Shown here one piece after another: positions 16,124-40,331 of a stretch of DNA of 64,000 nucleotides. The notes under the pieces were generated by a model that was not told the DNA's origin, ran no database searches, and saw only the letters and a program-made list of their open reading frames with translations. The DNA lies in contig OZ219856.1 of the NCBI GenBank assembly GCA_964291395.2, positions 1,120,001 through 1,184,000 of the forward strand. Direction: 5' to 3'. Made by a program: the position numbers and the translations under genes. This DNA is from Alphaproteobacteria bacterium (GTDB lineage Bacteria > Pseudomonadota > Alphaproteobacteria > UBA2966). The stretch's first letter is position 1, and every line of letters starts with the position of its first letter.

Positions 16124-18559
16124 ATGGCCAGTGACAGGGCGAAGCCAAGTAGTTTGGGTGCTGAACCGGCGGAGAGCGGAGGGGCGGTCGAGCCGTCGTT
16201 CCGGAGTGCCCTCCCGCACTTCCTGCCGCTGGCGGTCTTCCCGCTGATCGTCAACGCCGCGATTCACGGCGGCTGGTGGATCGCGGCTCCCTTCGCCTTC
16301 TTCGCCCTTCCGGGGCCGCTGGATATCGCGTTCGGTGCTGACGAGCGAAACATGGATCCGGTCAAGACGCCGGAAAGCCGGCTGCTCTGGTATGAGCTGC
16401 CGGTTTGGGGATGGGCGTTCCTCTGGCCGGTGACGTTCGTATTCGTGCTCTGGCAAATCCTTGTCGCCGGCCATCTCGCGATCTGGGAAGCCGCTTTGAT
16501 GACCGTCGTGCTGGCCACCGAGGCCCAGGCGGTCTTCATCGTCGGTCACGAACTGGTCCACCGGCGCGCGACGTGGGAGCGGCGTCTGGGCGAGTTTCTG
16601 CTCGCGTCCGTCTCATACCCTCAGTACGCCACGGAGCATGTCTATATTCACCATGCTCTCGTCGGCACGCCGCTGGACGTGGGGTCCGCGCCCAAGGGCC
16701 AGAGCATCTGGCGGTATTTCCCCCGCGAAGTGGCGAGCAACCTACTCGGCGCCTGGAAGGTTGCGCGCGACCGGCTCGCGCGCCGCCGCTTGCCGGTCTG
16801 GCACCACACCAACCCGTTCTGGCGCTACGGCATCGAAACCGCCTTCTGGTACGCGTTGATCTATTGGCTGGGCGGTCCGTGGGCGATCCCGGTCTATGTC
16901 GTCATGTGCCTCGGCGTCGTCTTCTCGATGAAGATCAGCAACTATATCCAGCACTACGGTTTGCGCCGCGTCCGTCTGCCCAACGGCCGGTTCGAAAAGG
17001 TCCGGCCCCGTCATTCCTGGAGCACTGACTGCAGGTTCAGCAACTGGATGTTCTACAACATGCAGCGGCACCCGGACCATCATGCCGTGGCGAGCCGGCG
17101 CTACCCGCTGTTGCAGCACCACGCCGGGAACGAGTCGCCGCAACTGCCGGGAGGCTACGCCAAGATGTTCAATCTGGCCGTCCGTCCGAAACGCTGGTTC
17201 GAGACGATGGATCCCTTGGTCGACGGCTGGCGCGCGCGCTTCTATCCCGAGGTCGACGACTGGAGCGCCTACGACAGTCCGGTCTCCGCGGCGCGTCCGG
17301 AGGCCTTCGACGCGATCGTCGAGATCTTTGGCGCCGCGCCGCGCCTCGCCGCATGGATCGAACGCAACCCGGAACTGCTCGAGAGTCTCCAGGACAGGGA
17401 ATTCACCGACCTCGATCTCCCGGAGGGTTTCGGACCGGACCCGGAAACCGAGGCGGTCGCCCGACGGGGCCTGACGCGCCTCTACTGGACGCACGAGTTT
17501 GGCTCTTCCGAAATGAAGGAGCGGATCGCCGAGATCCCGGTTCAGGACGTGGACGACGCGGTAGACACCGTGCGGAACTGGTCGAACGACAAGGCGTTCC
17601 AGATCGGCATGCATACCTTGCGTGGCAACCTGTCGCCGGTCGAGGCGGGAACGGCGTTGTCCAACGTCGCCGAGGCCTCGATCTCCGCCGTGTTGTCGGC
17701 CGTCACGGAGGACTCCGCCCACAGGCGCGGACCGAGCGGTGAAGGCGGTGTCGCGGCAGTCGTTCTGGGCGAACTGGCCAGCGGGGAAGCGGCACCCGGC
17801 GCCGAGCTCGATGTCTTTTTCGTCTATGTAGGCGCCGCCGTCGATCGCAAAGCCCTGTGCCGGCGCTTCCGCGAAGCCCTGGCCGGTCTGTCCCGCGACA
17901 GCCTGCTGTTCGCCCCGATGCCGCGCGGCGCCGGTAAGGAGCGGGCCGCGTGGTCTCTCGACGATTTGGCGGACCATTGCCGGACTGGCGCGCTTCCGGA
18001 TCTGACTCGGACACGTCGTGTCTTCGAATTCGGCGAGTCGGGAATCGGAAGGCGGTTCGACGACGCACGGCGCGAAAGTCTTGCTCATGGGGCTGCTCGC
18101 GACGCGCTCATCGCGGAGTTGCGGGACGGGGCCGGGCGCGCGGTCGAACCGGGCCTCTCGTCTCTCGACGACATGCGGGGCGGCCTCCGGGATGTCGAGC
18201 GCGCCGCCCGGTTGCTGCGATTGACCCATACCGGAAACGACCCGGATGACCCGGCACCCACCGCCGCCTCGGTCTTCCGTGGCGCCGGTGCCGGGCGGCT
18301 CGCGGACGCCGCGACCCTGTGGCGCGGCCTGCGGGGCATTCTGCGGCTGGTCGGAGGGGACGGTTTCGCGGTTGAGGCAGCGGGTCCGAAGGTCAAGGCC
18401 GCCGTCGCGAGGGCCTGCGGGGCGGAAGATTTCGACGCGCTGACCGCCGCAGTCCGCGATACGGCCGCCTCCGCCTCCGCCGAAATCGATACCCTTGTCG
18501 GAAGGAATGTCTCCCCGGCTGGGAGCGACGCCGGTTCCGAAGCGTCCGGTCCGTCTTGA
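16124..18559 (+). CDS. AlkB-type membrane di-iron monooxygenase/desaturase fused to a GlnE adenylyltransferase-like domain
   Basis: N-half: TM helices plus HELVH, EHVYIHH, NYIQHYG, MQRHPDHH; C-half: GAAPRLAAWIERNPELLESL, VRNWSNDKAFQIG, ALSNVAEASI, VLGELASGEAAPGAELDVFFVY, RGGLRDVE resembling the GlnE C-terminal module. Confidence 0.78.
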   Translation: MASDRAKPSSLGAEPAESGGAVEPSFRSALPHFLPLAVFPLIVNAAIHGGWWIAAPFAFFALPGPLDIAFGADERNMDPVKTPESRLLWYELPVWGWAFLWPVTFVFVLWQILVAGHLAIWEAALMTVVLATEAQAVFIVGHELVHRRATWERRLGEFLLASVSYPQYATEHVYIHHALVGTPLDVGSAPKGQSIWRYFPREVASNLLGAWKVARDRLARRRLPVWHHTNPFWRYGIETAFWYALIYWLGGPWAIPVYVVMCLGVVFSMKISNYIQHYGLRRVRLPNGRFEKVRPRHSWSTDCRFSNWMFYNMQRHPDHHAVASRRYPLLQHHAGNESPQLPGGYAKMFNLAVRPKRWFETMDPLVDGWRARFYPEVDDWSAYDSPVSAARPEAFDAIVEIFGAAPRLAAWIERNPELLESLQDREFTDLDLPEGFGPDPETEAVARRGLTRLYWTHEFGSSEMKERIAEIPVQDVDDAVDTVRNWSNDKAFQIGMHTLRGNLSPVEAGTALSNVAEASISAVLSAVTEDSAHRRGPSGEGGVAAVVLGELASGEAAPGAELDVFFVYVGAAVDRKALCRRFREALAGLSRDSLLFAPMPRGAGKERAAWSLDDLADHCRTGALPDLTRTRRVFEFGESGIGRRFDDARRESLAHGAARDALIAELRDGAGRAVEPGLSSLDDMRGGLRDVERAARLLRLTHTGNDPDDPAPTAASVFRGAGAGRLADAATLWRGLRGILRLVGGDGFAVEAAGPKVKAAVARACGAEDFDALTAAVRDTAASASAEIDTLVGRNVSPAGSDAGSEASGPS

Positions 18560-20874
18560 GTCCGCCGGCGCACCTGCCGCGTGGAACCCTGAAGAAGGCC
18601 GCCGTCGCGGACCTCGGTACGATCGAGGTGCCGGTGCTGACGCCGCATTTCGAATTTCGATCGATCGAAGACGGGCAGGTGCTCCTGCTGTCCGAAACGT
18701 TCAACACGTTGCTCCATGGGCGGATCCTTTGCGATCTGCTGCCGCTGCTCGACGGCAGGCGCTCGCGGAACGACATCGTCTCCGCGCTTGCCGGTTCGCA
18801 TTCGGAGTCTGACGTTCTGACCGCGCTCGCCTCTCTCGCGGCCAAGGGCTACGTCGTCTCGGGCGAATACGCCATGGAACGGGGAGCGGCAGCGTTCTGG
18901 TCCTCCCTGGGCGCGTCGCCGCGCTGGGCCGAGGAACGCTTGGCGGCGGCGAGGGTGGCTGTCGTCGGCGACGACGGCCGTCTCGCCCGGCCGCTAGACG
19001 TCATGGGCGTGGACGTGGGTGCGGACAGCCCGACGCTCTCGGTCATCGTCTGCGTCGACTATCTCGACGAACGGCATGACGCCGTCAACCGGCGCCATAT
19101 CTCCTCCGGCGCACCGTGGATGGCGGTCAGGCCGAAGGGCGTGCAACCCCTCTTCGGCCCCGTCTTCCGGCCCGCGGAGCAGGGCCCGTGCTGGGCTTGT
19201 CTGGCCCACCGCCTGCGTGGCCACCAGGAGGTCCACACGTTCCTGCGCAACGTCGCCGGCGAAGACACCGCTTTTCTGCCCCGTGCCGCCGAGCCCGCCG
19301 TTGTGGACGCGGTATACGGCCTCGTCGCCACCGAAATCGCCAAGTGGCTGGTTCTCGAGGAGGCGGCGCCCCTTCACGAGCACGCGATCACGCTGGATGT
19401 GAGTCATCTGAAGGCCGAGCACCATGCCGTCATGCGCCGTCCGCAGTGTTCCGTCTGCGGCGACGAGGCATCGTATCGCACCGACCGGCCGGCACAGCCA
19501 GTGCGACTCCAACCGAGCCCGAAAGGCGTCTGCAACAGCGGCGGCGTGCGCTCGGTATCGCCGGAAGAGACTCTCACGCGGTATCGCCATTTGATCAGTC
19601 CCGTCAGTGGTATCGTGACCTGGGTTGCCCGCGCCACGGAGGAGACCGATCCCTGGCTGCACGTCCACTGGGCCGGTAGCAATCTGGCGCTCCGGATCAA
19701 GAATCTGAGCTCGCTCAGGCGCAGCCTGCGGAGCAAGAGCGCCGGCAAGGGGAGCACGGCGAGCCAATCGGAGGCGAGTGCGCTCTGCGAGGCGATCGAA
19801 CGCTATTCCAGTGCCTTCCACGGCGACGAAATTCGCCGCCGCCGGCGATTGTCAGACTTCGCGGCGGCGGGTGAGGCGGAGGCGGTCCACCCCAACGATG
19901 TCCAGCTCTTCAGCGGTCGGCAGCTGGATCATGCGGAGGAGATCAACGCCCGCGGCCATCCCTACAACGTTGTCCCGCCACGCTTCGACTCCGAGAGGAA
20001 TGTCGACTGGTCGCCCGTGTGGTCGCTCACGCAAGGCCGGCATCGTTATCTGCCTACGTCCATGCTCTACGGCATGACGCCGGAACAGCGCGGCGATTCT
20101 GGCCTCTGGGCGGACTCCAACGGCTGCGCTGCCGGCAACACGCTGGAGGAAGCCATCCTGCAGGGGTTTTTCGAGCTGGTAGAACGCGACGCCTTCGCCA
20201 TCTGGTGGTACAACCGGCTTCGCTTGCCCGAGGTGAATCTGGAAAGTTTCGGAGATTCCTACTTGGCGTCGGCCGCCGACTACTACCGCCGCCATCATCG
20301 CGACATGTGGGTGCTGGACGCGACCAGCGATCTCGGCATCCCCGCCTTCGTTGCGCTCTCGCGCCGCACCGACGTCGAGACGGAGGACATCATCTACGGT
20401 GCGGGCGCGCATTTGGACCCGCACGTCGCGGCGCTCCGCGCGGTGTGCGAGATGAACCAGTGTTTGACCTGGGTCCCCCGCCCCGGGGATGCTGCCGCGC
20501 GCTACGGCGTCGACGATCCGATGTGTCTTTGGTGGTGGAAGAACGCAACTCTCGCGGACCATCCTTGGCTGGCGCCGGCTCCAGGCTCCGCACCGCGCGG
20601 CAGGTCGGACTATCCGGTTCCCGTTACGGCGGACCTGCGGGAAGACGTGGAGCGCTGCCGTGCATTGGTGGAAGCCAGGGGCATGGAATTCCTGGTCCTC
20701 GACCAGACGAGGCCCGACGTCGGCATGCCGGTGGCGCGCGTGATCGTGCCCGGTCTGCGCCACTTCTGGGAACGCTTCGCGCCGGGACGCCTCTACGACG
20801 TGCCGGTTGAGATGGGGTGGCGGGACGGTCCGCTCGACGAAGCAGATCTCAATCCCGTTCCCGTCGTCGCGTGA
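18556..20874 (+). CDS. Fused E1-like/YcaO cyclodehydratase (TOMM/azoline-forming)
   Basis: GPCWACL, PQCSVCG, SAGKG, ALCEAIERYS, DSNGCAAGNTLEEAILQGFFELVERDA, Pro-rich C-terminus LNPVPVVA; TTG start overlaps upstream stop. Confidence 0.93.
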   Translation: MSPPAHLPRGTLKKAAVADLGTIEVPVLTPHFEFRSIEDGQVLLLSETFNTLLHGRILCDLLPLLDGRRSRNDIVSALAGSHSESDVLTALASLAAKGYVVSGEYAMERGAAAFWSSLGASPRWAEERLAAARVAVVGDDGRLARPLDVMGVDVGADSPTLSVIVCVDYLDERHDAVNRRHISSGAPWMAVRPKGVQPLFGPVFRPAEQGPCWACLAHRLRGHQEVHTFLRNVAGEDTAFLPRAAEPAVVDAVYGLVATEIAKWLVLEEAAPLHEHAITLDVSHLKAEHHAVMRRPQCSVCGDEASYRTDRPAQPVRLQPSPKGVCNSGGVRSVSPEETLTRYRHLISPVSGIVTWVARATEETDPWLHVHWAGSNLALRIKNLSSLRRSLRSKSAGKGSTASQSEASALCEAIERYSSAFHGDEIRRRRRLSDFAAAGEAEAVHPNDVQLFSGRQLDHAEEINARGHPYNVVPPRFDSERNVDWSPVWSLTQGRHRYLPTSMLYGMTPEQRGDSGLWADSNGCAAGNTLEEAILQGFFELVERDAFAIWWYNRLRLPEVNLESFGDSYLASAADYYRRHHRDMWVLDATSDLGIPAFVALSRRTDVETEDIIYGAGAHLDPHVAALRAVCEMNQCLTWVPRPGDAAARYGVDDPMCLWWWKNATLADHPWLAPAPGSAPRGRSDYPVPVTADLREDVERCRALVEARGMEFLVLDQTRPDVGMPVARVIVPGLRHFWERFAPGRLYDVPVEMGWRDGPLDEADLNPVPVVA

Positions 20875-24940: not shown

Positions 24941-25188
24941 GCCCCTGCATTGGCCTTCAGTCTGTGTTGCCGCGGAAGGTGGGTGCCTTGATCAACCTTG
25001 ATTCGGACTCAATGGGTTCGGAGCACGTGGTCTGAATTGGACTGCTCCCGGCGTAGTGGGGTTCCGCGCGGTGAGTTGGCGTGTTCGCTACTTTGCCATA
25101 AGGCTTCGAATGCAATGAAGCTTGGCGCGCCGCTTGCCCCCAAGGGCGTTCGTAACTAGTGGCTCCAAGTCCTGTGGACAAGCGCGGC

Positions 25189-27513
25189 ATGGCAAGAGAG
25201 CAATTCGCAACGCGATTTGTCGAACGGGTGCTCGCGGCCCGTCGGCTGGTCATCTTGACCACGCTGTTCTTGGTTGCGATCGCGTCGAGCGGTATTGCTC
25301 TGCTCGAATTCTCTGCCAACTACCGCATCTTCTTCGACGAAGACAATCCGCAGCTTCTAGCGCTGGAAGCGCTGGAGAATACCTATGGGAAGAACGAAAA
25401 CATCGTATTCCTGGTTGTTCCGGACGATGGTGACGCCACGTCGCAAAGCGCACTCTCGGCCGCCGTCTGGCTTACGGAAGCCGCCTGGCAGACACCATAT
25501 TCGAGGCGCGTCGACTCGCTCGCCAATTTTCAATACACGACCGCCGACGGCGATGATTTGTATGTGCGGGATCTTGTTGATCCACAAGAACTGACCCGAG
25601 CCGAGGCGCGGTCGCGAATCCGTGCCGCCGCTTTGTCCGACCCGCGTATCGCAAGCAGTATTCTAGCCCTAAATGGTGATGTCAGCGTTGTAAACGTTAC
25701 GGTTGAACTGCCGGAAGAGGGCCTGTTGGACGCCGTGGCCGAAGTTGCCGAATTCGCCAGATCGGTCGCTGCGGAGGCAGAAGAACGATTTCCCGACATA
25801 GACCTCCGCATCGTCGGCACGGTCATGATCAACCAAACCTTTTTAGAAGCCTCGATCAGCAGCCAGATGATCTTCCTGCCTGCAAGCCTTCTCCTCATGG
25901 CCTTGGTTCTTGGCGTCCTCACCCGGGGCTGGGCGGGGGTGGTGGCGACTGGGTTTGTCATCGTCTTTTCCATTCTCACGTCGGTGGGCCTGGGCGTATG
26001 GGTCGGTTTACCCTTTTCTCCGCCCATCTCGCCGGCACCGACCATCGTGTTGATGATTGTCGTGGCGAACTGCGTCCACCTATTGGTGGCTTTGCAGCAG
26101 CGTCTGCGTGCTGGGGATTCCAAGCACGATGCCATCGTCGAATCCGTCAGGCTCAACCTGCATCCGGTGTTTCTGGCGAGCCTCACGACGGCGCTTGGAT
26201 TCTTGAGTATGAACTTTTCCGAAGTACCGCCCTATCGTCATCTCGGTAACTTCGTCGCTTTCGGTATCGCCGCCTCCTTCATTCTCTCCGTCACCTTTCT
26301 GCCGGCCCTGCTTTCGCTTCTCCCGATTCGTGCCGCAAAGGACCGACGGCTCCGCGGACCCACAATGAATCTCTTGGCGGATTCTGTGCTGCGCTACAGA
26401 AAGGCGCTAATTTGGGGATGGTTGGCGATTGTGCCCGTGATGATTCTGGCCATTCCGCGCAACGAGCTTAATGATGTCCTGGTTCATTTCTTCGATGAGG
26501 GCGTTGAGTTTCGGCAGGATACGGATTTCATGGACGAGCGCTTGAGCGGCAATACCCTGCTCGAATACTCGTTGGAAGCATCTACCGAGGGCGGTGTCAC
26601 CGACCCCCTTTTCCTCGCTCAGGTTTCGAACTTCGCCGACTGGTACCGTGAGCAGCCCCCTGTACGCCACGTGGCGGTCATCACCGATACCTTTCGGCAA
26701 CTCAACAAGAGCATGCATGGCGACGACCCGACCGCCTACCGGATTCCGGAAAGCAAAGAGTTGGCGGCACAATACCTGTTGCTTTACGAGCTCTCGCTTC
26801 CGCAGGGTCTGGACCTGAACAATCAGATCGACAGATCTAGATCGGCCACGCGAGTGACGATATCGGCGGAGACACTTGATTCACAAGAGGTGCTCGAACT
26901 GAACGCGCGTGCCGAGGCCTGGCTAAAGGAAAACGCGCCGCATGTAGCCGGCGTCAACAGCACCGGTCCCGCGGCGCTGTTCGCCTACATCGGGCAGCGC
27001 AACATCCGCGCCATGCTGGTCGGGACAATGGTCGTGCTCCTGGCCATTTCCGCGATTCTTCTCTTCGCCTTGCGATCACTGCGGCTGGGCTTGATAAGCA
27101 TCGTTCCCAATTTGGTTCCCGCCGTGCTGGGCTTCGGCGTCTGGGGATTGACGGTCGGACAGGTAGGACTCTCGCTATCTGTCGTGGTGGCCATGACCGT
27201 AGGCATCGTTGTGGACGATACGGTACATTTCCTCAGCAAGTATCGCCGTGCGCGGCGTGAATACGGCCAGGGCCCCGAAGAAGCGGTGCGTCACGCTTTT
27301 GATACGGCTGGCCGGGCCCTGGTCACGACGACGGTCGTGCTGGTGGCTGGATTCTTGATATTCGTGTTTTCGCCGTTCGTTCCCACCGCGCAGGTTGGGG
27401 TCTTGACCGCGATGATTATTGCCTTTGCGCTCGTTGCCGACCTGACGCTCCTGCCGGCGCTGTTGACGACGGTGGACCGGACTTCCGCGGAGCGGGCCGC
27501 GCTTGCGACCTGA
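25189..27513 (+). CDS. MMPL/RND-family transporter
   Basis: Two repeats of TM + periplasmic loop + 5 TM; LASLTTALGFLS, GIVVDDTVHF, DLTLLPALL. Confidence 0.9.
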   Translation: MAREQFATRFVERVLAARRLVILTTLFLVAIASSGIALLEFSANYRIFFDEDNPQLLALEALENTYGKNENIVFLVVPDDGDATSQSALSAAVWLTEAAWQTPYSRRVDSLANFQYTTADGDDLYVRDLVDPQELTRAEARSRIRAAALSDPRIASSILALNGDVSVVNVTVELPEEGLLDAVAEVAEFARSVAAEAEERFPDIDLRIVGTVMINQTFLEASISSQMIFLPASLLLMALVLGVLTRGWAGVVATGFVIVFSILTSVGLGVWVGLPFSPPISPAPTIVLMIVVANCVHLLVALQQRLRAGDSKHDAIVESVRLNLHPVFLASLTTALGFLSMNFSEVPPYRHLGNFVAFGIAASFILSVTFLPALLSLLPIRAAKDRRLRGPTMNLLADSVLRYRKALIWGWLAIVPVMILAIPRNELNDVLVHFFDEGVEFRQDTDFMDERLSGNTLLEYSLEASTEGGVTDPLFLAQVSNFADWYREQPPVRHVAVITDTFRQLNKSMHGDDPTAYRIPESKELAAQYLLLYELSLPQGLDLNNQIDRSRSATRVTISAETLDSQEVLELNARAEAWLKENAPHVAGVNSTGPAALFAYIGQRNIRAMLVGTMVVLLAISAILLFALRSLRLGLISIVPNLVPAVLGFGVWGLTVGQVGLSLSVVVAMTVGIVVDDTVHFLSKYRRARREYGQGPEEAVRHAFDTAGRALVTTTVVLVAGFLIFVFSPFVPTAQVGVLTAMIIAFALVADLTLLPALLTTVDRTSAERAALAT

Positions 27514-27665: not shown

Positions 27666-28217
27666 ATGTTCAATAGTCCGTTTGACTCATTTCACAATAC
27701 CGTTGCCGAAGCAAAGGAAGAGCGTGAACAACTCGACCGGCTGCTGACGATTTCCACACCGCGGGAGCGTCTGCTTGTCGCCGTCATCGCTCTCTTGTTG
27801 TTCGTCCTCGCGGCATGGCTCTTCTTTGGCAACGTAGCCCGTAGCGTTGCGGTTGACGGCGTACTGGTCGAGCTTGGCGCAAACTTGTCCGAGGGCAATC
27901 GGACCGTGCAAGCCCTCGTCTGGGTGGAGAGCGATGTCGCGCCGCACATCGAGGCTGGCATGCCGGCGGTAATAGAGCTAGCCATGACGGATGGGGAGGC
28001 GGACACGCTTGACGGAGAGGTCGACACGATTGCCGCCGTACCCTTGTCCGAGGGGCTAGCAGAATTCGGGTCCGCGGCCCCAGTGTCCGTTTACCGCGTC
28101 GATATCGCGCTCGATGAAGGCCTAGATATTGCTTCCCTTGCGGGTAGGAAATGCCGGATCGTCATCGAACTCGGCAGGCAATCTCCGGTCGCACTTTTCA
28201 GAATGAGGCGATCGTAA
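27666..28217 (+). CDS. Short NHLM-system secretion (HlyD/MFP-like) protein
   Basis: EQLDRLLTISTPRE + single TM and C-terminal CRIVIELGRQSPVALF; upstream of the NHLM ABC pair. Confidence 0.65.
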   Translation: MFNSPFDSFHNTVAEAKEEREQLDRLLTISTPRERLLVAVIALLLFVLAAWLFFGNVARSVAVDGVLVELGANLSEGNRTVQALVWVESDVAPHIEAGMPAVIELAMTDGEADTLDGEVDTIAAVPLSEGLAEFGSAAPVSVYRVDIALDEGLDIASLAGRKCRIVIELGRQSPVALFRMRRS

Positions 28218-28218
28218 A

Positions 28219-30429
28219 ATGCGGCCGGGCGCTTCCAACAAGGCAAGCGACAAGGCCGTATCGGAACTCTCGAAACGAAGGGTAATCACGCCAATTCTGT
28301 TGCAGATGCACGCGACAGAATGTGGTGCCGCCTGCCTCGGCAGCATACTGGCCTACTTCGGGCGCTGGGTGCCGCTTACCGAATTGCGCGAAAAGTGCGA
28401 GGTGAGCCGAGACGGTAGCAGCGCCGCGAGCATCTTACGCGCCTCCAGACACTATGGTCTCGAATGCAGCGGACTCAGCGTACGCGCCGATCAACTGGAA
28501 AAGCTGCAGTTACCTCTGATTGTGTTCTGGCAATTCAGCCATTTCGTCGTCCTCGAAGGGCTCGATGGCCGTAATTATTATCTCAATGACCCGGCCACGG
28601 GGCGACGCAAGCTTTCCGCCGAAGAATTCAACAGGGGCTACAGCGGAATTGCGCTGCGATTCAAGCGCGGCGCCGAATTCAAGCCCGGCGGCGAGTGGCC
28701 CGGCTTGTTCGAGCAATTGAGCACCTTGCTCACCGGATCATGGAGTGTGCTTGCCGGGGCGATTGCATGCGCATTCATGTTGACGTTACTGGCACTTGTG
28801 GTTCCCGCATCCCTCAGTGTCTTCGTGGACAACGTCCTGGAAGAGCATGGGCCCTGGGGCGGATTGGTGGCGGCCCTGCTTGGCGGCGGTATCCTGGTAT
28901 ACGTCCTGTCCTTGCTCAAGCACCGATTTCTGCAGCGGCTCGCAATCCGGATTTCGGTGATTGGCTACAACCGAGGCTTGTCGCGGCTGCTGCGGTTGCC
29001 GGTGGAGTTTTTTGAATACAGGTTGGTCGGCGATTTGACTGATCGAGTCTCGTCCGTCGACAGAATCGCGAAGAATCTGACGGACCAGTTTCTTGTCCTC
29101 GTTGTCGACATGGCAATGAGCGCGGTGTTGCTCGTCGCGATGTTGACCTACGATGTCCTGCTCACGCTGATTGTGCTGTTGCTGGCCCTTCTGCACGGAG
29201 TACTGGCCTACTTCCTCAACGCGCTCCGGGCCGTTCGAAGCCAGGCGATGAGGCGCGAACAGGGATTGTTGATCGGCGTCGGCATGCAGATGTTGAGTCA
29301 TGCGGACAACCTGCGCATGACGGGATCGGATGACCGGTTTTTTTCGCGCTGGAGTGGTCAGCAGGCTCGCGAACTGCATGCGCGCCAGCTCTATGCCGAA
29401 CTGGCCTCCGTCAATACCGCCCTTCCGGGCCTGGTCGCCGCGCTGCGAAGCGCGGCGATCTTGGGCATCGGGGCAAGTATGGTCATGACTGGAGAAATGA
29501 CCCTGGGGGCGCTGGTTGGGATCTATATCTTGGCAGAGATGTTTCTGGCGCCTATCGGGCGCTTTTTGGAGTTCGCCGACAAACGCCACGCGCTCGAAAC
29601 CGATTTGCAACGACTGGAAGACATCTCCAAAGCCGCTGAAGACCCCGCTTTCGGCCGCCGAAGTCGGGAATCGGAGTCGATCCCCACGTTCAACGGCCGG
29701 CTCCAACTTGCAGGTCAACTCGAACTGAGAAACGTCACCTTCGGTTTCAACAAGAGCCGACCGCCTCTGATAAAGGACTTCAACCTCGTGATAAAGCCGG
29801 GGCAGCGGGTTGCCGTGGTCGGTCCCAGCGGTTCCGGCAAGTCGACCTTGGCGCGTCTGGTTTCAGGAATCTATCAGCCTTGGTCAGGCGAAATCCTGCT
29901 TGATGGCTATCCTCGGGATGAGATTCCCGAGGAAGTGCTGCGGCGGTCCATTTCCATGGTGGATCAGGAAGTCGTGCTCTTTTCTGCGTCTCTGCGCGAC
30001 AACATCACGTTGTGGAACCCGGCTGTTCCGGATGAAGTCATCATCGCCGCGACGCGAGATGCCCGCATCCATGACGAAATCCTGCATAGGCCCCTCGGAT
30101 ATTCGACCCTCGTCGAGGAAGGCGGGGCGAATTTCAGCGGCGGCCAGCGGCAACGGCTGGAAATCGCCCGTGCGCTGGTGGGCAATCCGACAGTGCTCGT
30201 TCTGGACGAGGCGACCAGCGCCCTTGATGCCGCGACAGAGGAATATGTCGACGATGCCTTGCGGCGTCGCGGTGTCACCTGCCTGATCCTGGCGCACCGG
30301 CTGAGCACCGTGCGGGATTGCGACGAAATTATCGTGCTCGACAAAGGTGACGAGGTGCAGCGCGGCACGCACGACGAGTTGATCGCGGATCGGGATGGCA
30401 CGTATTACAAGCTGGTCAAGTCAGGCTGA
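28219..30429 (+). CDS. NHLP/NHLM export ABC transporter with C39 peptidase domain
   Basis: LQMHATECGAACL (Cys), SHFVVL (His), TM domain, GPSGSGKST, FSGGQRQR, LVLDEATSALD. Confidence 0.93.
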   Translation: MRPGASNKASDKAVSELSKRRVITPILLQMHATECGAACLGSILAYFGRWVPLTELREKCEVSRDGSSAASILRASRHYGLECSGLSVRADQLEKLQLPLIVFWQFSHFVVLEGLDGRNYYLNDPATGRRKLSAEEFNRGYSGIALRFKRGAEFKPGGEWPGLFEQLSTLLTGSWSVLAGAIACAFMLTLLALVVPASLSVFVDNVLEEHGPWGGLVAALLGGGILVYVLSLLKHRFLQRLAIRISVIGYNRGLSRLLRLPVEFFEYRLVGDLTDRVSSVDRIAKNLTDQFLVLVVDMAMSAVLLVAMLTYDVLLTLIVLLLALLHGVLAYFLNALRAVRSQAMRREQGLLIGVGMQMLSHADNLRMTGSDDRFFSRWSGQQARELHARQLYAELASVNTALPGLVAALRSAAILGIGASMVMTGEMTLGALVGIYILAEMFLAPIGRFLEFADKRHALETDLQRLEDISKAAEDPAFGRRSRESESIPTFNGRLQLAGQLELRNVTFGFNKSRPPLIKDFNLVIKPGQRVAVVGPSGSGKSTLARLVSGIYQPWSGEILLDGYPRDEIPEEVLRRSISMVDQEVVLFSASLRDNITLWNPAVPDEVIIAATRDARIHDEILHRPLGYSTLVEEGGANFSGGQRQRLEIARALVGNPTVLVLDEATSALDAATEEYVDDALRRRGVTCLILAHRLSTVRDCDEIIVLDKGDEVQRGTHDELIADRDGTYYKLVKSG

Positions 30430-33371
30430 TGCAGGACACAAGGCCGGAATACGCATCGATAGCCGAACTCGCCGCTCGCTCCGGTACATCCGTGCCCTGC
30501 GCCGGCAACTTGCCGGTGAAACTCGACGACCCGGATGGTGTCTGGTTCATTGACCGGGGCGCCGTCGATCTGTTCTTGGTCGAATTCAAGGACGGGGTGG
30601 AGCAGGCGCCGCCGCAGCACCTGCTGCGCCGCGAATCAGGCAGGTTGCTGCCGGGTGTCGCACCAGACGAACAGGGCGATGACAAAGACACTACGCTCAG
30701 CCTGATAGCCAAAGGATTGCCGGGTACCCTTCTGAAGCGCCTGCCGGCATCCTTGCTGTCCGAGATCCATCCAACGGAACTGGCGGAACAGACCGATACT
30801 TGGCTGACCGCCATTACCGACACGCTTTCGCGTTTCGTAGGCCGCATTCCGCGTCCGACTGCGCTGGCCGAACCCGGTCTGACCCGGACTCTGGCCCCTT
30901 GTACGCTATCCGTACGGCGCGGCGTGGTGTGGGTATCCGAACCGTCGCGCGGCGCAAGCCTGTTCATGGATATGGTCGATCAGGCGGAACTGGCCGAGGC
31001 GAGCGGTCCGCACGAAGCCGTGATACCGCTGACGCGGACAAGCTGGCTCACCTTGCTCGACGAGGCAACAGTTTCAGGCAAGTCAACCGAAACACTGGCG
31101 GAGCAAGGCATGCTACTGCCGGCGCTTGCTTCCTTTCACGCGGTTGCTTTCGCCTTGGAACGCCTTAACCGTCGACTGGCCGTGGTCGATGATGCGAATC
31201 TCGAACGCGCTCGGATATCCAGCCGCCGCAAGGCCGAAAAAGCTGCCCGACAGCGGCTTTTCAATATCTATGACCACCCGATTGACCGGGATGCCGACGT
31301 CGAGGACACAGCTCTGGCGGATGCCCTGCACATCATCGGCCGCCATCAAGGAATCGATTTCAGGATTCCAGTACGCTCGGGACCTTCCGATTCTCCGGTC
31401 GGCCTCGTCGACGTTCTTGACGCGTCAGGTGTGCGCGCTCGGCGCGTGCGATTCAAGGCCGAGGGCAACTGGTGGCGCGGCGACAGCAACGCGATGCTGG
31501 CATTCCGCGCCAAGGACGGCCGGCCCGTTGCGCTGCTGCCGGGAATGTTCGGGCGCTACCGGGAAATCGACCCGGTCAGTAGGCGCAGTGTCCGGATTAC
31601 GGCGGATCGCGCCGACGCGCTGGAGGAAGAAGCTTGGATGTTCTATCGGCCATTACCGTCGGGGAACGTGAAGCCGTTAGACCTGCTGGGTATCGCCCTG
31701 CATGGATCGGCCCCGGATCTGGCGCGGCTGGTGATTGCCGGGCTTCCGGGCGGCCTGATCAAACTGCTGCCGGCACTCGCGCTTGGATTCGTTGCGAATC
31801 ATATAATGGCGGGCGGAAGCGTCGGAGCGCTCTATGCCGTGGCCGTGACGCTGGCGGGGTTTGGCCTGCTCGGCGCACTGCTTCACCTGCTTCAAAGCAC
31901 GGCGATGATGCGGCTCGAGGGGCGCTCGGCGTCGCGGGTCGAAGCCGCCTTCTGGGACCGCCTCATGCGCCTTCCGCCAAGCATTCTGCACCGTCAACCA
32001 GCCGGCGATCTGGCCATGTCGGGAATGACGTTCCAGAATCTTCGCGATGGCATGCAGGGAGTCGTCGCCGATAGCCTGCTATCAATGGTTTTTCTGCTTC
32101 CGGTTTTTGGTGTCATCTTCTTCTACGATGCAACCCTCGGAGTCATCGCCCTCGTCTTCAGCTTGGCTTCGCTGCTGGTTACCGTAGCCTTGGGGTTGTG
32201 TCAGATTTCACCTTATGGGCGGATGATCGGCGCGGTACGTCGCGTAGCCGGCCGGCTGTTTCAGATCGTGGGCGGTATCGTCAAGCTGCGCGTGGAAAAC
32301 GCGGAAGGGTCGGCTTTCGCTATCTGGGCGCGGGATTATCGCGAGCAGAAACGCGCGGAGCTCGAACTGGGCGCGCTTGAGGGACATTCGCGGGCATTCG
32401 GTGCCGCGCTCCCCTTTCTTGCCGGTGGGGTAATACTGTTCGTGGTGGTAACGGTGGGAGATCGGAACCTCCCGGTCGGCGATTTCCTCGTCGTTTACAC
32501 CGTCTTTATCGTTTTCCAGGCCGCCATCGCCCGGCTCGGCGAGTCCTTCGGCACCATTGCCGCCATGCTGCCGGCGTTCGATCAGATGCGCCCGCTGCTC
32601 GCTGCAGTTCCTGAAACCGAGGTCGAAGGAGAGCCGGTCGAACGTCTGGGCGGCGAAATTCTGTTCGACCACGTTTCCTTTCGGTACGATCCCGACGGGC
32701 CGTTGATCCTCGACGATGTCACGATTCGCGCCGGTCCCGGCGAATTCGTCGCGATTGCCGGCGAGTCCGGTGCCGGCAAGAGCACCCTGTTCCGGCTCGC
32801 GCTTGGAATCGACCGGCCATCCGCTGGCGCGGTGTATTACGACGGACGCGATCTGAGACACCTGAACCTGAAGCAAGTGCGCCGGAAAATCGGCGCGGTT
32901 CCCCAGTCAGTGCGGCTCCATCCCCAGGATCTCTGGGACAATATCGTCGCGCACCACGAGGAAACGACCACCGGGGAAGTATGGCAGGCGGCCCGAGCCG
33001 CTGGGATCGAACGTGAAATCAAGGCCATGCCCATGGGCATGATGACGATGGTCGGGGCGAGCGGGGCTGTCTTGTCAGGCGGCGAGAGTCAGCGCGTCAC
33101 CATCGCCCGCTCGCTGATCGGCAGCCCGCGAATTATGCTGTTTGACGAGGCAACCAACTGGCTCGATAACGAAAGCCAAGCCGAGGTCATGCAGAACCTA
33201 GCCCTCCTGACCTCCACCCGGATCGTTATTGCACACCGCCTGTCCACGCTGGAACAGGCTGACCGCATCTACGTGATGCAAGCTGGAAAGGTCGTGCAAA
33301 GCGGCTCCTTCAACAAACTCATGGAGGTCGACGGGGTATTCAGAGAACTGGTCAGAAGGCAGGTCGCTTGA
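30429..33371 (+). CDS. NHLM-system ABC transporter permease/ATPase, peptidase-less partner
   Basis: Long N-terminal extension, ASGVRARRV, WWRGD, GESGAGKST, LSGGESQR, FDEATNWLD. Confidence 0.9.
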   Translation: MQDTRPEYASIAELAARSGTSVPCAGNLPVKLDDPDGVWFIDRGAVDLFLVEFKDGVEQAPPQHLLRRESGRLLPGVAPDEQGDDKDTTLSLIAKGLPGTLLKRLPASLLSEIHPTELAEQTDTWLTAITDTLSRFVGRIPRPTALAEPGLTRTLAPCTLSVRRGVVWVSEPSRGASLFMDMVDQAELAEASGPHEAVIPLTRTSWLTLLDEATVSGKSTETLAEQGMLLPALASFHAVAFALERLNRRLAVVDDANLERARISSRRKAEKAARQRLFNIYDHPIDRDADVEDTALADALHIIGRHQGIDFRIPVRSGPSDSPVGLVDVLDASGVRARRVRFKAEGNWWRGDSNAMLAFRAKDGRPVALLPGMFGRYREIDPVSRRSVRITADRADALEEEAWMFYRPLPSGNVKPLDLLGIALHGSAPDLARLVIAGLPGGLIKLLPALALGFVANHIMAGGSVGALYAVAVTLAGFGLLGALLHLLQSTAMMRLEGRSASRVEAAFWDRLMRLPPSILHRQPAGDLAMSGMTFQNLRDGMQGVVADSLLSMVFLLPVFGVIFFYDATLGVIALVFSLASLLVTVALGLCQISPYGRMIGAVRRVAGRLFQIVGGIVKLRVENAEGSAFAIWARDYREQKRAELELGALEGHSRAFGAALPFLAGGVILFVVVTVGDRNLPVGDFLVVYTVFIVFQAAIARLGESFGTIAAMLPAFDQMRPLLAAVPETEVEGEPVERLGGEILFDHVSFRYDPDGPLILDDVTIRAGPGEFVAIAGESGAGKSTLFRLALGIDRPSAGAVYYDGRDLRHLNLKQVRRKIGAVPQSVRLHPQDLWDNIVAHHEETTTGEVWQAARAAGIEREIKAMPMGMMTMVGASGAVLSGGESQRVTIARSLIGSPRIMLFDEATNWLDNESQAEVMQNLALLTSTRIVIAHRLSTLEQADRIYVMQAGKVVQSGSFNKLMEVDGVFRELVRRQVA

Positions 33372-33553: not shown

Positions 33554-34855
33554 ATGAAAGACCCCATCAACGCGACGGAACGCCTCCTCTCGAGAGCCGG
33601 GGAAGACAGCGCGTTTCGCGCGCGACTGCTCGCGAATCCGAAAGATGCAATAGAACGGGAATTCGGCTTGACGCTGGCCGAGGGCCACGAGATTCACGTG
33701 CACGAAGAAACCGATACCGCGACGCATGTCGTGCTTCCGCCGAGGAGTAAGCTCAGCGCGGAAGAACGGAAGGCGGCGATAACCGGCGCAGCCTCACTCG
33801 AGTTTCTCAAGAAGACAATGTACGATCCCGCACCTCCGATTCGCCCCCCCGGCCCGAAACCGATAACTGCCCGGGTGAGCGCCGTTACGCCCGAGACACT
33901 TGCCAAAGCGGGTAGAGAAAGCATCCGCCGCGGTCTCGTTTTCCTGGAATCCACTATCGACGAAAACGGGGCTTGGCACTGCATCCGGTTCAATGTGGCC
34001 GACCCGGACATTCCACGGCATTTCGAAAAACCCCCCTTTGTTTCGGCTCTCTGCGTACTTGCCCTCGAAAGTTGCGATGAAGCACGGGCCAAGGCCATGT
34101 GCGCCCGTACCAAGGCGTATCTTGCCGACACCATCGAATATCCCGGATTGTGGCGCTACTACCGTCATCTGCCCCAGGATCTTGACAGCACCACGCTCTG
34201 TTCACTCGCCATTGGGACTCACCCCTGGATTTTGCTGGAAAGGAACGTTCCGCGAATATTGGCGAATCGCGACGAGGAAGGTCGTTTCACGACCTGGGTG
34301 CTGGAGGAAGACGAACCCAATGTCGTGTCGACCTTTCGTCTCGAAGCGGACCCCATAGTCAATGCGAATGTCATCGCTTACCTTGGCGACCACCCCGAAA
34401 CCAAGGATGCCCAACGATGGTTGGAAACTTTGATTACCGAAGGCAGCCTTGAGGGATCGTCTAAATGGTATCCCGACACGGTTACGATCTACTATGCAAC
34501 TGCCCGTGCCATGATTCGCGCGCAGCCCGCCCTTGATCAACTACGCCCGATACTTGCGGATCGTATCCTGGGCTTGCGCGACGAGAAGGGAGAATTCGGC
34601 AACATCCTTCAGACCGCTCAAGCAGTGTCGGCGCTCTACAATATTGGAAGGCCTGAAAGCATCGACGCGAAATGCCAAGTGGAAAGGTTCATAGGCTCGC
34701 AACGTGAGGACGGTAGCTGGCCGGAGCTTCTCGCGTTTGGCGACCAATCGTTAAAGTGGGGCGCGATAGGGCGGATAGGGCATGGCTCTGAAGCCGTGAC
34801 CTCTGCGTTTTGCATCGAAGCTTTGGAGCGTCTCGTCGAAATCTTGAAGGCCTGA
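33554..34855 (+). CDS. NHLP leader domain fused to a prenyltransferase/squalene-cyclase-type (class II terpene cyclase-like) domain
   Basis: aa 1-79 colinear with the precursor leader; QW-like motifs RRGLVFLESTIDENGAW and FIGSQREDGSW; GLWRYY...PQDLDST. Confidence 0.75.
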   Translation: MKDPINATERLLSRAGEDSAFRARLLANPKDAIEREFGLTLAEGHEIHVHEETDTATHVVLPPRSKLSAEERKAAITGAASLEFLKKTMYDPAPPIRPPGPKPITARVSAVTPETLAKAGRESIRRGLVFLESTIDENGAWHCIRFNVADPDIPRHFEKPPFVSALCVLALESCDEARAKAMCARTKAYLADTIEYPGLWRYYRHLPQDLDSTTLCSLAIGTHPWILLERNVPRILANRDEEGRFTTWVLEEDEPNVVSTFRLEADPIVNANVIAYLGDHPETKDAQRWLETLITEGSLEGSSKWYPDTVTIYYATARAMIRAQPALDQLRPILADRILGLRDEKGEFGNILQTAQAVSALYNIGRPESIDAKCQVERFIGSQREDGSWPELLAFGDQSLKWGAIGRIGHGSEAVTSAFCIEALERLVEILKA

Positions 34856-38581: not shown

Positions 38582-38590
38582 AGAGACGAT

Positions 38591-39849: not shown

Positions 39850-40101
39850 ATGAGAAGTGGCGATGAGATGCTGAAGCAAATCGTCGAGAAATCCGCCTTG
39901 GACGCGGAATTTAGGCAACAGCTTCTTGCGGATCCAAAGACTACCATCAGTCAGGAATTGGACATTACGATTCCCGAATCCATGACGATCAAGGTCCATG
40001 AGAGCGACATGCAGACGGTGCATCTCGCGTTGCCGCCGGATCCGAACATCACCGAGGAGCAACTCGAAGCTATCTCAGCCGGGCTTTGCTGCTGCTGGTA
40101 A
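39850..40101 (+). CDS. srpE: NHLP-leader (proteusin) RiPP precursor, core LCCCW
   Basis: DAEFRQQLLADPK, VHE, HLALPP, ITEEQLEAISAG leader end, 5-residue core; symbol from recalled sponge srp clusters. Confidence 0.92.
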   Translation: MRSGDEMLKQIVEKSALDAEFRQQLLADPKTTISQELDITIPESMTIKVHESDMQTVHLALPPDPNITEEQLEAISAGLCCCW

Positions 40102-40156: not shown

Positions 40157-40331
40157 ATGTATAGCTTGAACTGATCCTCTGTTCCCGAGCGGGAGCAGGG
40201 CGGGATTCGGTATGTGCGTTCGGGGCTGATATCAATAGGGGACCGATCCGGAGAACACCTGGAGCACATAGGCCTTGGCTTTTCGAAGCTGATTCATTCA
40301 ATGCGACACGTCCATCACGAGACCTGTGCGG

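What the first reader, a model, noticed from the sequence alone, without database searches (positions are those of the whole stretch)
16124..18559. AlkB-type di-iron enzyme fused to a GlnE adenylyltransferase-like domain, coupled to ycaO
Seen: all four AlkB histidine boxes, with Gln replacing the usual Glu in NYxEHYG (NYIQHYG), joined in frame to a region following the GlnE C-terminal module. Its nucleotidyltransferase motif is degenerate (GELASGEAAPGAELD vs GKLGGxELxxxSDLD). The stop overlaps the ycaO start (TTGA). Established: AlkB fusions I know of are to rubredoxin or ferredoxin/reductase, not GlnE. No rubredoxin gene is in the window. Inference: a tailoring hydroxylase/desaturase whose GlnE-derived domain serves substrate binding, regulation or nucleotidyl transfer.
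Basis: partly seen in the sequence, partly recalled or inferred. Interest (0 to 1): 0.85.

Follow-up and report, generated by a model that had tools for sequence, protein, structure and literature searches.

The report
AlkB–dead-GlnE oxidase of srp cluster
A real, widely shared gene joins a membrane iron oxidase to an inactivated copy of a nitrogen-regulation enzyme domain, and it is an unstudied core part of a known peptide-antibiotic-like gene cluster that sponge bacteria of many phyla share.

Summary
ORF 16124-18559 (811 aa) is an AlkB-type membrane di-iron domain joined in frame to a domain derived from the adenylyltransferase (AT) half of GlnE. Its stop overlaps a YcaO gene.

It is neither an artefact nor unique. 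502 stretches in species-representative genomes encode a relative. The best 80 (60-75% identical) are labelled with at least six phyla or classes.

The window holds a split copy of the published srp (sponge-derived RiPP proteusin) cluster: precursor SrpE with core LCCCW (39850-40101), YcaO SrpC, an SrpI-like tryptophan halogenase and NHLP-type exporters. The fusion gene sits directly upstream of the YcaO in 69 of 80 loci.

All nine iron-binding histidines are invariant. The one carboxylate ligand of AlkB is always Gln. The nucleotidyltransferase Asp residues are not conserved, so nucleotidyl transfer is unlikely.

The dead GlnE-like module forms one clade derived from GlnE AT domains. It also occurs on divergent AlkB-like proteins and on RND pumps outside RiPP clusters.

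Best reading: an oxidative tailoring enzyme of the YcaO-modified core, with a non-catalytic cytoplasmic module. The chemistry is untested. The papers I could read call these genes 'unknown function'. The founding srp paper was not available.

The parts
16124..18559 (+). The fusion gene (called AG here), 811 aa. AlkB-type di-iron membrane domain (about residues 25-365), highly conserved junction (366-460) and GlnE-AT-derived domain (about 461-800).
   Evidence: An AAGAGG sequence lies 6 nt before the ATG.
16484..17170 (+). Pfam FA_desaturase match (residues 121-349) holding the four His boxes. Q276 is at 16949-16951.
   Evidence: The nine ligand histidines, H297 and Q276 are 80/80.
17219..17503 (+). 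Junction segment (residues 366-460), including the EFTDLDLP motif. This is the most conserved part of the protein.
   Evidence: Median identity to the window is 80%, against 70% for the AlkB part and 55% for the rest. It aligns with the start of the AT half of the genome's own GlnE paralogue.
17765..17821 (+). Degenerate nucleotidyltransferase motif LGELASGEAAPGAELDVFF (residues 548-566).
   Evidence: G549 77/80, A552 79/80 and S553 79/80. Position 561 is A43/E14/G7/P4/T3/S3. Position 563 is D49/E16/N7/H4/R3/K1. Alignment to 3k7d.
18556..20874 (+). SrpC-type cyclodehydratase: winged helix, E1-like (TIGR03882) and YcaO/SagD (TIGR03604) domains. The only YcaO in the genome.
25159..27513 (+). MMPL/HAE3 (HpnN-like) RND exporter of the cluster.
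   Evidence: Found in 39 of 80 loci.
27666..28217 (+). Short HlyD-like protein with a weak match to the NHLP secretion protein.
   Evidence: Found in 39 of 80 loci.
28219..30429 (+). NHLP-family export ABC transporter with a C39 peptidase domain.
   Evidence: Found in 56 of 80 loci.
30429..33371 (+). Second NHLP export ABC subunit.
   Evidence: Found in 55 of 80 loci.
33554..34855 (+). 433-aa protein: NHLP-leader-like N-terminus fused to a domain with weak squalene-hopene-cyclase likeness.
   Evidence: Found in 61 of 80 loci. It lies upstream of AG on the same strand in 39 loci, with a gap of at most 521 nt in 37 of them.
38591..39709 (+). Conserved 372-aa protein of no known family. In other genomes it directly follows the YcaO.
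   Evidence: No Pfam or NCBIfam match. Found in 58 of 80 loci.
39850..40101 (+). SrpE precursor, 83 aa: NHLP leader and core LCCCW after ...AISAG.
   Evidence: The LCCCW core of srp is named in passages.
40326..42433 (+). LolA-like protein (40326-41204) and DUF1302-like protein (41204-42433).
   Evidence: Found in 22 and 15 of 80 loci.
42592..43866 (+). Flavin-dependent tryptophan halogenase, SrpI-like.
   Evidence: Pfam Trp_halogenase E 3e-43. The only such gene in the genome. Found in 39 of 80 loci.

Best explanation
The gene is a genuine, conserved core component of the srp proteusin gene cluster. It is most likely the cluster's oxidative tailoring enzyme.

Shown here:
- It is a single protein made of a six-helix AlkB-type membrane di-iron domain and a cytoplasmic domain descended from the AT half of GlnE.
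- The metal site is under strict selection, but the Glu ligand of AlkB is always Gln.
- The nucleotidyltransferase catalytic residues have decayed.
- The gene travels with the SrpC YcaO gene across phyla.

Inferred: the enzyme sits in the inner membrane next to SrpC. It oxidises the very hydrophobic, heterocyclised L-C-C-C core of SrpE while or after SrpC makes the thiazolines.

My committed guess is dehydrogenation of thiazoline to thiazole (-2 Da per ring). The second choice is hydroxylation (+16 Da) of the Leu side chain or a ring.

The dead GlnE-like module would act as a non-catalytic, strongly acidic cytoplasmic cap or adaptor on the basic face of the AlkB domain. That role is general to this AlkB subfamily and was not invented for RiPPs. 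Electrons must come from a carrier other than rubredoxin.
For: Fusion real and widespread.
- 884 proteins at E<=1e-3. All 120 listed are 781-829 aa with PF00487, and 107 of them also carry PF03710.
- 502 relatives in species genomes.
- Contigs of three studies bridge the junction.

Cluster membership.
- tblastn of window genes against the 80 best loci finds YcaO in 69, SrpE in 61, the NHLP-fusion protein in 61, the 372-aa protein in 58, the ABC/C39 transporter in 56, the second ABC subunit in 55 and the halogenase in 39.
- The commonest gene order puts AG directly before the YcaO. The median gap is 38 nt, and it is at most 100 nt in 50 of 69.
- Of 10 genomes without a YcaO in the flanks, 9 have an SrpC orthologue elsewhere.
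- Chosen by SrpE instead of AG, both other SrpE-bearing genomes in a 401-genome class sample have AG at 69-70%.
- One AG copy without SrpE carries an internal stop.

Active oxidase, dead transferase.
- Residue counts are, and the alignment to 3k7d is.
- The Glu is an Fe2 ligand lying 3.2 A from the substrate methyl in FtAlkB (PMC10113152).
- A water takes that place in the desaturase SCD1 (PMC10110569).

No other oxidase.
- No further gene family occurs in more than 12 of 80 loci.
- No SagB-type dehydrogenase match was found in the genome.

Core logic. AG is kept whether the core ends in W, GV/GL/GI/GW, L or G, and whether or not a halogenase is present. L-[C/S]-C-C is constant.

Context from papers. 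SrpC alone is poorly active and could not be purified (PMC10286304). Another paper calls the remaining proteusin-cluster genes 'genes of unknown function' (PMC11832590).
Against:
[quoted passage not shown] So it is not needed for cyclodehydration.
- Divergent AlkB plus GlnE-like proteins (3 loci) and RND plus GlnE-like fusions (1 locus) have no YcaO or NHLP gene within about 9-10 kb. The architecture is therefore older than its RiPP use, and the ancestral substrate was probably not a peptide.
- In FtAlkB the substrate tunnel opens into the membrane. A leader-bound peptide would be an unusual substrate.
- The cluster also holds hydrophobe-export genes (HpnN-like RND, LolA-like, DUF1302-like), which would equally fit a lipid substrate.
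- No electron donor was identified.
- One genome with AG had no SrpC match with my query (G052).
Confidence: 0.5

Rival explanations
1. The enzyme acts on a lipid or other hydrophobic non-peptide molecule. This could be a membrane lipid remodelled for self-protection, or a lipid or terpenoid partner that is exported or joined with the peptide. It does not touch the SrpE core.
For: - AlkB relatives take substrates from the membrane.
- Divergent family members lie in non-RiPP neighbourhoods.
- The cluster carries an HpnN-like RND pump, LolA-like and DUF1302-like proteins, and a protein with weak squalene-hopene-cyclase likeness.
Against: - When the cluster is rearranged, AG stays with the YcaO (69 of 80 loci) and not with the export block. 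The window itself shows this.
- It is the only candidate oxidase in a cluster that lacks an azoline dehydrogenase.
Confidence: 0.22
2. The GlnE-derived domain is a sensor. It keeps binding of a nucleotide, glutamine or a PII protein, and it switches the membrane enzyme (and, in the RND fusions, the pump) according to nitrogen or energy state.
For: - The G-D-L-A-S-x-E part of the phosphate-binding loop stays conserved (G549 77/80, A552 79/80, S553 79/80, E555 77/80) although the catalytic Asp residues are lost.
- The same module is fused to two unrelated kinds of membrane protein.
- GlnE is controlled by PII and glutamine (recalled textbook knowledge, not tested here).
Against: - No binding test was possible.
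- The best-conserved part is the junction next to the AlkB domain, not the nucleotide loop.
- In 4 of 5 AG-bearing genomes of other phyla no other GlnE-like gene was found at E<=1e-8, so no GlnE system is present there. That says nothing about PII.
Confidence: 0.15
3. The C-terminal domain is an active nucleotidyltransferase that AMPylates the peptide or a partner protein.
For: The fold family and the Pfam GlnE match. In the window's own copy the motif reads E-L-D, which could in principle bind a metal.
Against: - Position 561 is Ala in 43 of 80 and acidic in only 14.
- Position 563 is non-acidic in 15 of 80.
- The third Asp (in 'VDARLRP' of 3k7d) aligns with a gap or Ala.
- A catalytic site would not drift like this while the iron site is invariant.
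Confidence: 0.04
4. The fusion is an assembly or gene-calling artefact, or a decaying pseudogene.
For: The genome bin has 9% estimated contamination. One related run shows a 1-nt insertion at 18355 in one contig.
Against: - Hundreds of full-length orthologues exist, many on complete chromosomes.
- Catalytic histidines are invariant.
- Independent contigs bridge the junction.
Confidence: 0.01

Closest known systems
AlkB alkane 1-monooxygenase, including natural AlkB-rubredoxin fusions (FtAlkB-G, PDB 8f6t; 8sbb)
   Same: - Same fold family by profile (E 3e-61).
- Same four His boxes and nine His ligands, and six hydrophobic stretches.
- A domain is fused at the cytoplasmic C-terminus.
- Four of the six Arg residues of the rubredoxin-docking patch are kept and one is Lys.
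   Different: - The Fe2-ligand Glu is Gln in 80/80.
- The fused domain is not an electron carrier.
- No rubredoxin match in the genome.
- Arg169 is Tyr in 79/80.
- The gene sits in a RiPP cluster, not in an alkane-degradation operon.
- The review of AlkB partners lists only rubredoxin and ferredoxin/reductase fusions (passages of PMC8918992).
GlnE, glutamine synthetase adenylyltransferase, C-terminal AT domain (PDB 3k7d)
   Same: - Homologous over about 290 residues (E 9e-15).
- 40% identical over residues 388-794 to the AT half of one of the genome's two GlnE paralogues.
- In a quick tree the module is nested among GlnE AT domains.
   Different: - Only one of the two GlnE modules is present.
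- The catalytic Asp residues are not conserved.
- The score is far below the NCBIfam equivalog cut-off.
- It is attached to a membrane enzyme.
srp (sponge-derived RiPP proteusin) gene clusters: SrpE, SrpC, SrpI (Nguyen et al. 2021, known to me only through citing papers)
   Same: The window has SrpE with core LCCCW, an SrpC-type YcaO, an SrpI-like halogenase and NHLP exporters. The cluster is shared across phyla in sponge-associated genomes.
   Different: - In this genome the cluster is split. AG and the YcaO lie about 17 kb upstream of the gap between the NHLP-fusion gene and the 372-aa gene, where they sit elsewhere. Four unrelated genes fill that gap.
- In the passages I could read, nothing is said about the role of the AlkB/GlnE-like gene.
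FMN-dependent azoline dehydrogenase (SagB/McbC type) of thiazole/oxazole peptide pathways
   Same: Proposed same job (azoline to azole) and the same habit of being encoded next to the cyclodehydratase.
   Different: It is an unrelated protein: soluble, flavin-dependent, nitroreductase fold. The functional analogy is an inference only. No SagB-type match was found in the genome.
Stearoyl-CoA desaturase SCD1
   Same: An all-histidine di-iron site without a carboxylate ligand. A water sits where AlkB has Glu (PMC10110569).
   Different: Different fold within the superfamily, and an acyl-CoA substrate. The likeness concerns only the metal site.

Membership tests
AlkB-type alkane monooxygenase (membrane FADS-like superfamily) | Profile match to the family and to solved AlkB structures | tested here: met
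   PF00487 E 5e-26. 8f6t E 3e-61 and 8sbb E 7e-49 over about 310 residues.
AlkB-type alkane monooxygenase (membrane FADS-like superfamily) | Nine conserved iron-binding histidines in four motifs | tested here: met
   H142, H146, H172, H176, H177, H277, H316, H319 and H320 are each 80/80. The ligand list comes from PMC10113152.
AlkB-type alkane monooxygenase (membrane FADS-like superfamily) | Conserved Glu of NYxEHYG (Fe2 ligand, next to the substrate) | tested here: not met
   Gln in 80/80. Among 12 more distant fusion-family members with a recognisable motif, 8 have Gln and 4 have Glu.
AlkB-type alkane monooxygenase (membrane FADS-like superfamily) | Rubredoxin as electron donor (fused or encoded in the genome) | tested here: not met
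   No PF00301 match in G000, which is 98.1% complete. The control rang in 7 of 14 genomes.
AlkB-type alkane monooxygenase (membrane FADS-like superfamily) | Terminal hydroxylation of alkanes | not testable with these tools
   No assay was possible. The genomic context is a RiPP cluster, not alkane catabolism.
GlnE (glutamine synthetase adenylyltransferase) | Two tandem nucleotidyltransferase modules (AR and AT), about 950 aa | tested here: not met
   Only the AT-like module is present, at residues about 388-794. NCBIfam scores 75 bits against a cut-off of 724.
GlnE (glutamine synthetase adenylyltransferase) | Catalytic G-x(n)-D-x-D plus a third Asp | tested here: not met
   Position 561 is A43/E14/G7/P4/T3/S3. 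Position 563 is D49/E16/N7/H4/R3/K1. The third Asp aligns with a gap or Ala.
GlnE (glutamine synthetase adenylyltransferase) | Homology of the domain to GlnE AT domains | tested here: met
   PF03710 36.2 bits above the cut-off of 24. 3k7d E 9e-15. Nested among AT domains in a quick tree, with the clade of 28 membrane-fused modules at SH-aLRT 100.
srp proteusin gene cluster | NHLP precursor with core LCCCW | tested here: met
   Window 39850-40101 ends ...AISAGLCCCW. TIGR03793 scores 66.7 bits against a cut-off of 50.9. The core is named.
srp proteusin gene cluster | SrpC-type fused E1-like/YcaO cyclodehydratase and SrpI-type tryptophan halogenase | tested here: met
   TIGR03882 and TIGR03604 above their cut-offs. 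Trp_halogenase E 3e-43. Orthology to the published SrpC and SrpI was not checked against their sequences, which I did not have.
srp proteusin gene cluster | The fusion gene co-localises with these genes across genomes | tested here: met
   YcaO in 69/80 loci, SrpE in 61/80 and halogenase in 39/80. 9 of 10 remaining genomes have SrpC elsewhere.

The most novel reading that the evidence does not exclude
This would be the first membrane-embedded AlkB-type di-iron enzyme that tailors a ribosomal peptide. It would work as the obligate membrane partner of the SrpC cyclodehydratase and oxidise the thiazolines (or the Leu) of the LCCC core. That would explain why SrpC alone behaves poorly.

Its catalytically dead GlnE module would belong to an undescribed class of cytoplasmic adaptor domains. 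These arose once from the AT half of GlnE and were then welded onto different membrane proteins (AlkB-like oxidases and RND pumps).
Probability: 0.35. Interest if true: 0.8.

Novelty: new variant of a known kind. Interest (0 to 1): 0.6.

Why it matters
The srp clusters are among the most widely shared and most highly transcribed biosynthetic clusters of sponge microbiomes (passages). Their final product and ecological role are still unknown.

In the passages I read, experiments cover only the precursor, the YcaO and the brominase. SrpC alone was reported to be hard to handle.

This gene is the only other clearly enzymatic, strictly conserved member next to the YcaO. Knowing what it does is probably needed to obtain the true product.

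For enzymology, an AlkB-type site in which the single carboxylate is always an amide is a natural experiment. It bears on what steers these all-histidine di-iron centres toward hydroxylation or desaturation.

For protein evolution, the work shows a regulatory enzyme half (GlnE AT) that lost catalysis and became a module on membrane proteins.

Tried and rejected
I therefore could not test whether the C-terminal module docks on SrpE, SrpC or its own AlkB face.
- The protein atlas did not hold the window protein. For the stored homologue P0017 it returned only its own cluster and no structure.

Stand-alone forms of the C-terminal module. The 'shorter' search gave 70 short proteins, nearly all singletons covering only parts of the query. 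I read them as fragments, not as a stand-alone family.

Literature.
- The founding srp paper (Nguyen et al. 2021) is not held under its PMC id, DOI or PubMed id. I cannot say how it names or annotates this gene. Its text, figures and supplements may already show the gene.
- Term look-ups in PMC12455567, PMC12426817 and 10.64898/2026.08.03.742642 found none of the terms sought that bear on this gene.
- No listed paper in the library search combined AlkB/desaturase terms with proteusin, NHLP or YcaO terms.
- None of the listed papers combined AlkB with GlnE.

Other negative or weak results.
- The promoter/terminator scan around the two genes gave nothing above chance.
- I considered mapping srp gene letters onto the gene order and dropped it. 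The halogenase position did not fit the letter I by simple counting.
- The careful tree search did not finish in the time allowed, so only the quick tree is reported.
- RNA-library contigs (X19) cover parts of both genes. This does not show transcription, because DNA can be present in such libraries.
- Uncovered stretches mean nothing.
Full report
WHAT IS THERE

The ORF 16124-18559 (+) is open and encodes 811 aa. Pfam finds FA_desaturase at residues 121-349 (E 5e-26) and GlnE at 462-571 (36.2 bits, cut-off 24). NCBIfam GlnE equivalogs match only their C-terminal half and score far below cut-off.

A profile of 14 family members hits the solved AlkB structures 8f6t (E 3e-61) and 8sbb. It also hits the E. 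coli GlnE adenylylation domain 3k7d (E 9e-15).

The next ORF, 18556-20874, is a winged-helix, E1-like and YcaO cyclodehydratase. It is the only YcaO in the genome. The TGA of the first gene overlaps a TTG of the second.

That includes the Gln in NYIQHYG, the degenerate GELASGEAAPGAELD motif and the lack of a rubredoxin. None was found in the whole 98.1%-complete genome.

IT IS NOT UNIQUE

A word-seeded search found 884 proteins at E<=1e-3. All 120 listed are 781-829 aa and carry PF00487, and 107 of them also carry PF03710.

A scan of one genome per species found 502 stretches encoding a relative. The best 80 are 60-75% identical. By my count of their record titles they are:
- 44 Alphaproteobacteria
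- 17 Gammaproteobacteria
- 11 Acidobacteria-type (Bryobacterales, Terriglobia, Vicinamibacterales)
- 3 Deltaproteobacteria/Syntrophobacterales
- 2 Nitrospirales
- 2 Nitrospinota
- 1 Binatia

Several titles carry sponge-related names. By contrast, only 1 of 5 other genomes of the window's own genus has the gene.

Near-identical DNA occurs in runs of 15 studies, many labelled sponge metagenome. Contigs of three runs bridge the domain junction, and contigs of two runs bridge the boundary to the YcaO gene.

THE CLUSTER

The genome's best NHLP-leader matches lie in this window.
- ORF 39850-40101 is an 83-aa NHLP precursor ending ...AISAGLCCCW.
- ORFs at 28219-33371 are the two NHLP-type export ABC subunits, one with a C39 peptidase domain.
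- ORF 42592-43866 is a tryptophan halogenase.

Passages of three papers identify exactly this set as the srp (sponge-derived RiPP proteusin) cluster (10.1101/2023.06.09.544420; PMC10858898; PMC10286304):
- precursor SrpE with core LCCCW
- YcaO SrpC, which makes three thiazolines
- SrpI, which brominates the C-terminal Trp

Within 10-kb flanks of the fusion gene in the 80 loci, tblastn with the window's genes finds:
- YcaO in 69
- SrpE in 61
- the NHLP-fused 433-aa protein in 61
- the 372-aa unknown protein in 58
- the ABC/C39 transporter in 56 and the second ABC subunit in 55
- the MMPL pump in 39
- the halogenase in 39
- the LolA-like protein in 22 and the DUF1302-like protein in 15

The commonest order (8 loci) is: MMPL, HlyD-like, C39-ABC, ABC, NHLP-fusion, AG, YcaO, 372-aa protein, SrpE (opposite strand), LolA-like, DUF1302-like, halogenase.

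AG is followed by the YcaO on the same strand in 69 loci. The median gap is 38 nt, at most 100 nt in 50 loci and zero or negative in 7.

Of 10 genomes with no YcaO in the flanks, 9 have an SrpC orthologue elsewhere. One locus (L078) ends at a contig end and was not examined.

I also selected genomes by SrpE rather than by AG. In a 401-genome sample of the class, the only two other genomes with an SrpE orthologue both have AG at 69-70%. A further AG copy (67%) in a genome without SrpE carries an internal TGA and has no srp genes around it.

In this window the cluster is split. AG and the YcaO (GC 0.66-0.68) lie about 17 kb upstream of the position they hold elsewhere. Four unrelated genes (two DUF3237, a hydrolase, a luciferase-like monooxygenase) fill that place.

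THE TWO DOMAINS

I aligned the window protein with 79 locus proteins. One locus gave no usable ORF and was dropped.
- The nine histidines aligned to FtAlkB's nine iron ligands, plus H297, are 80/80. Gln276 is also 80/80.
- In FtAlkB the aligned Glu coordinates Fe2 and lies 3.2 A from the substrate methyl (PMC10113152).
- The other structure paper notes that the desaturase SCD1 has a water at that place. It suggests such differences may steer reactivity (PMC10110569).
- The rubredoxin-docking Arg residues of FtAlkB are mostly kept: R148 78/80, R153 78/80, R220 75/80, R289 77/80. Position 292 is Lys or Arg in 75 of 80, and Arg169 has become Tyr in 79/80.

The transferase site is not kept.
- The first Asp of DxD is Ala 43, Glu 14, Gly 7, Pro 4, Thr 3, Ser 3.
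- The second is Asp 49, Glu 16, Asn 7, His 4, Arg 3, Lys 1.
- The third Asp of GlnE aligns with a gap or Ala.

The best-conserved stretch of the whole protein is the junction at residues 366-460. Its median identity is 80%, against 70% for the AlkB part and 55% for the rest. The C-terminal half has net charge -21 and the AlkB half +10.

ORIGIN AND SPREAD OF THE MODULE

The genome has two full-length GlnE paralogues. The AT half of one is 40% identical to residues 388-794.

In four of five AG-bearing genomes of other phyla, AG is the only GlnE-like match at E<=1e-8.

A full scan of 1.84 billion representatives with the C-terminal 431 aa gave 677 hits at E<=1e-3.
- All eight representatives of about 800 aa that I checked (26-44% identical) are also FA_desaturase fusions.
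- Of the two other representatives checked, P0221 (1525 aa) is an AcrB-type RND pump with the module at its C-terminus. P0218 (782 aa) holds the C-terminal part of an AcrB-type pump followed by the same module, and may be a fragment.
- P0237 (1521 aa) matches at the same C-terminal position, but I did not scan it against Pfam.

In a quick tree all 28 membrane-fused modules form one group (SH-aLRT 100). This was IQ-TREE with SH-aLRT support only, and the careful search did not finish. The group is nested among GlnE AT domains. Its nearest rows are the window genome's own paralogue and P0211. RND-fused modules form one clade (100), and the srp proteins form one side of a branch (91) inside the AlkB-fused set.

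The one RND-fusion locus examined follows a HlyD-type adaptor gene and has no RiPP genes within 10 kb. Three divergent AlkB-fusion loci likewise have no YcaO or NHLP gene within about 9 kb. Among 12 divergent members with a recognisable motif, 8 have Gln and 4 have Glu at the ligand position.

READING

Three points stand on evidence:
- The fusion is real.
- It is a core srp gene.
- It has a conserved iron site and a decayed transferase site.

That it oxidises the SrpC-modified SrpE core is inference. The grounds are:
- its operon partnership with the YcaO
- its retention with every core variant: LCCCW 41, LCCCG[V/L/I/W] 6, LSCCL 2 and LSCCG 1 among 50 readable neighbouring precursors (a 51st hit, in L079, is cut off by the locus end and gave no core), plus LCCCG, LCCCL and LSCCL in metagenome loci
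- its retention with or without a halogenase
- the absence of any other conserved oxidase (no further family in more than 12 of 80 loci)
- the absence of a SagB-type dehydrogenase match in the genome

I prefer thiazoline-to-thiazole dehydrogenation because the carboxylate-free site resembles that of a desaturase. Hydroxylation is the second choice.

The wider family outside RiPP clusters argues that the C-terminal module is a general accessory of this AlkB subfamily (a cap, adaptor or sensor). It is probably not a purpose-built leader-binding domain. The same finding keeps a lipid substrate as a serious rival.

NOVELTY

The cluster is published. In the passages I could read, only SrpE, SrpC and SrpI are treated. 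One paper speaks of 'several genes of unknown function' in LCCC-type proteusin clusters (PMC11832590).

The review of AlkB electron partners lists rubredoxin and ferredoxin/reductase fusions only (PMC8918992).

Library searches found no listed paper joining AlkB/desaturase terms with proteusin, NHLP or YcaO terms, and none joining AlkB with GlnE.

The founding paper and all supplements were out of reach, so the gene may be drawn or named there.

I rate it a new variant of a known kind.

Noticed in passing
window 33554-34855 (+): A 433-aa protein has an N-terminus that is an NHLP-leader-like domain (TIGR03793, 48.4 bits, just under the cut-off). The rest has weak squalene-hopene-cyclase likeness. 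It is present in 61 of 80 loci and usually lies directly upstream of the fusion gene. Whether it is a 'protein-sized precursor' or a leader-mimicking enzyme is open.
   Followed up: partly
window 38591-39709 (+): A 372-aa protein with no Pfam or NCBIfam match. It is present in 58 of 80 loci, and in most loci printed it starts about 13 nt after the YcaO gene. In this window it is separated from the YcaO.
   Followed up: partly
window 34900-38600 and 20900-25100: The srp cluster is split in this genome. Two DUF3237 genes, an alpha/beta hydrolase and a luciferase-like monooxygenase occupy the place where AG and the YcaO sit in other genomes. An SDR, a PanB-like gene and a DCC1-like gene separate the two blocks. 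The AG-YcaO block has higher GC (0.66-0.68) than the export block (0.585-0.63). Its proteins are also more distant from the other loci (median 63-66% against 73-88%).
   Followed up: partly
P0221, P0237, P0218; L123:6785-11359: AcrB-type RND pumps carry the same degenerate GlnE-AT-like module at their C-terminus. L123 lies after a HlyD-type adaptor gene with no RiPP genes nearby. I found no description of such fusions, but I did not search the literature for them specifically.
   Followed up: partly
L002 (G000 contig 3) and L003 (G000 contig 1): The genome has two full-length GlnE paralogues, with open frames of 1017 and 996 aa. Both have intact motifs in both halves. The contig-3 copy is the closest full-length relative of the fused module in this genome.
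   Followed up: partly
L022, L023, L041, L049, L051, L056 and others: A cluster variant has cores LCCCG[V/L/I] or LSCCL and no halogenase. It carries an extra methyltransferase-like ORF (12 loci). Seven loci carry an FAD-linked oxidase-like ORF.
   Followed up: no
L136 (G347) and L137 (G110): Shorter relatives (606-635 aa) match only residues about 8-558 at 37-38% identity. That covers the AlkB part and the conserved junction, without the rest of the GlnE-like domain. They lie in housekeeping-like neighbourhoods.
   Followed up: partly
window 18355: One contig of run X7 has an extra G behind 18355, inside the C-terminal tail of the fusion gene. This may be a strain variant or an assembly error.
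   Followed up: no
window 11808-11884 (+): A tRNA-Pro (GGG) lies 4 kb upstream of the AG-YcaO block. I did not test whether it marks an insertion site.
   Followed up: no
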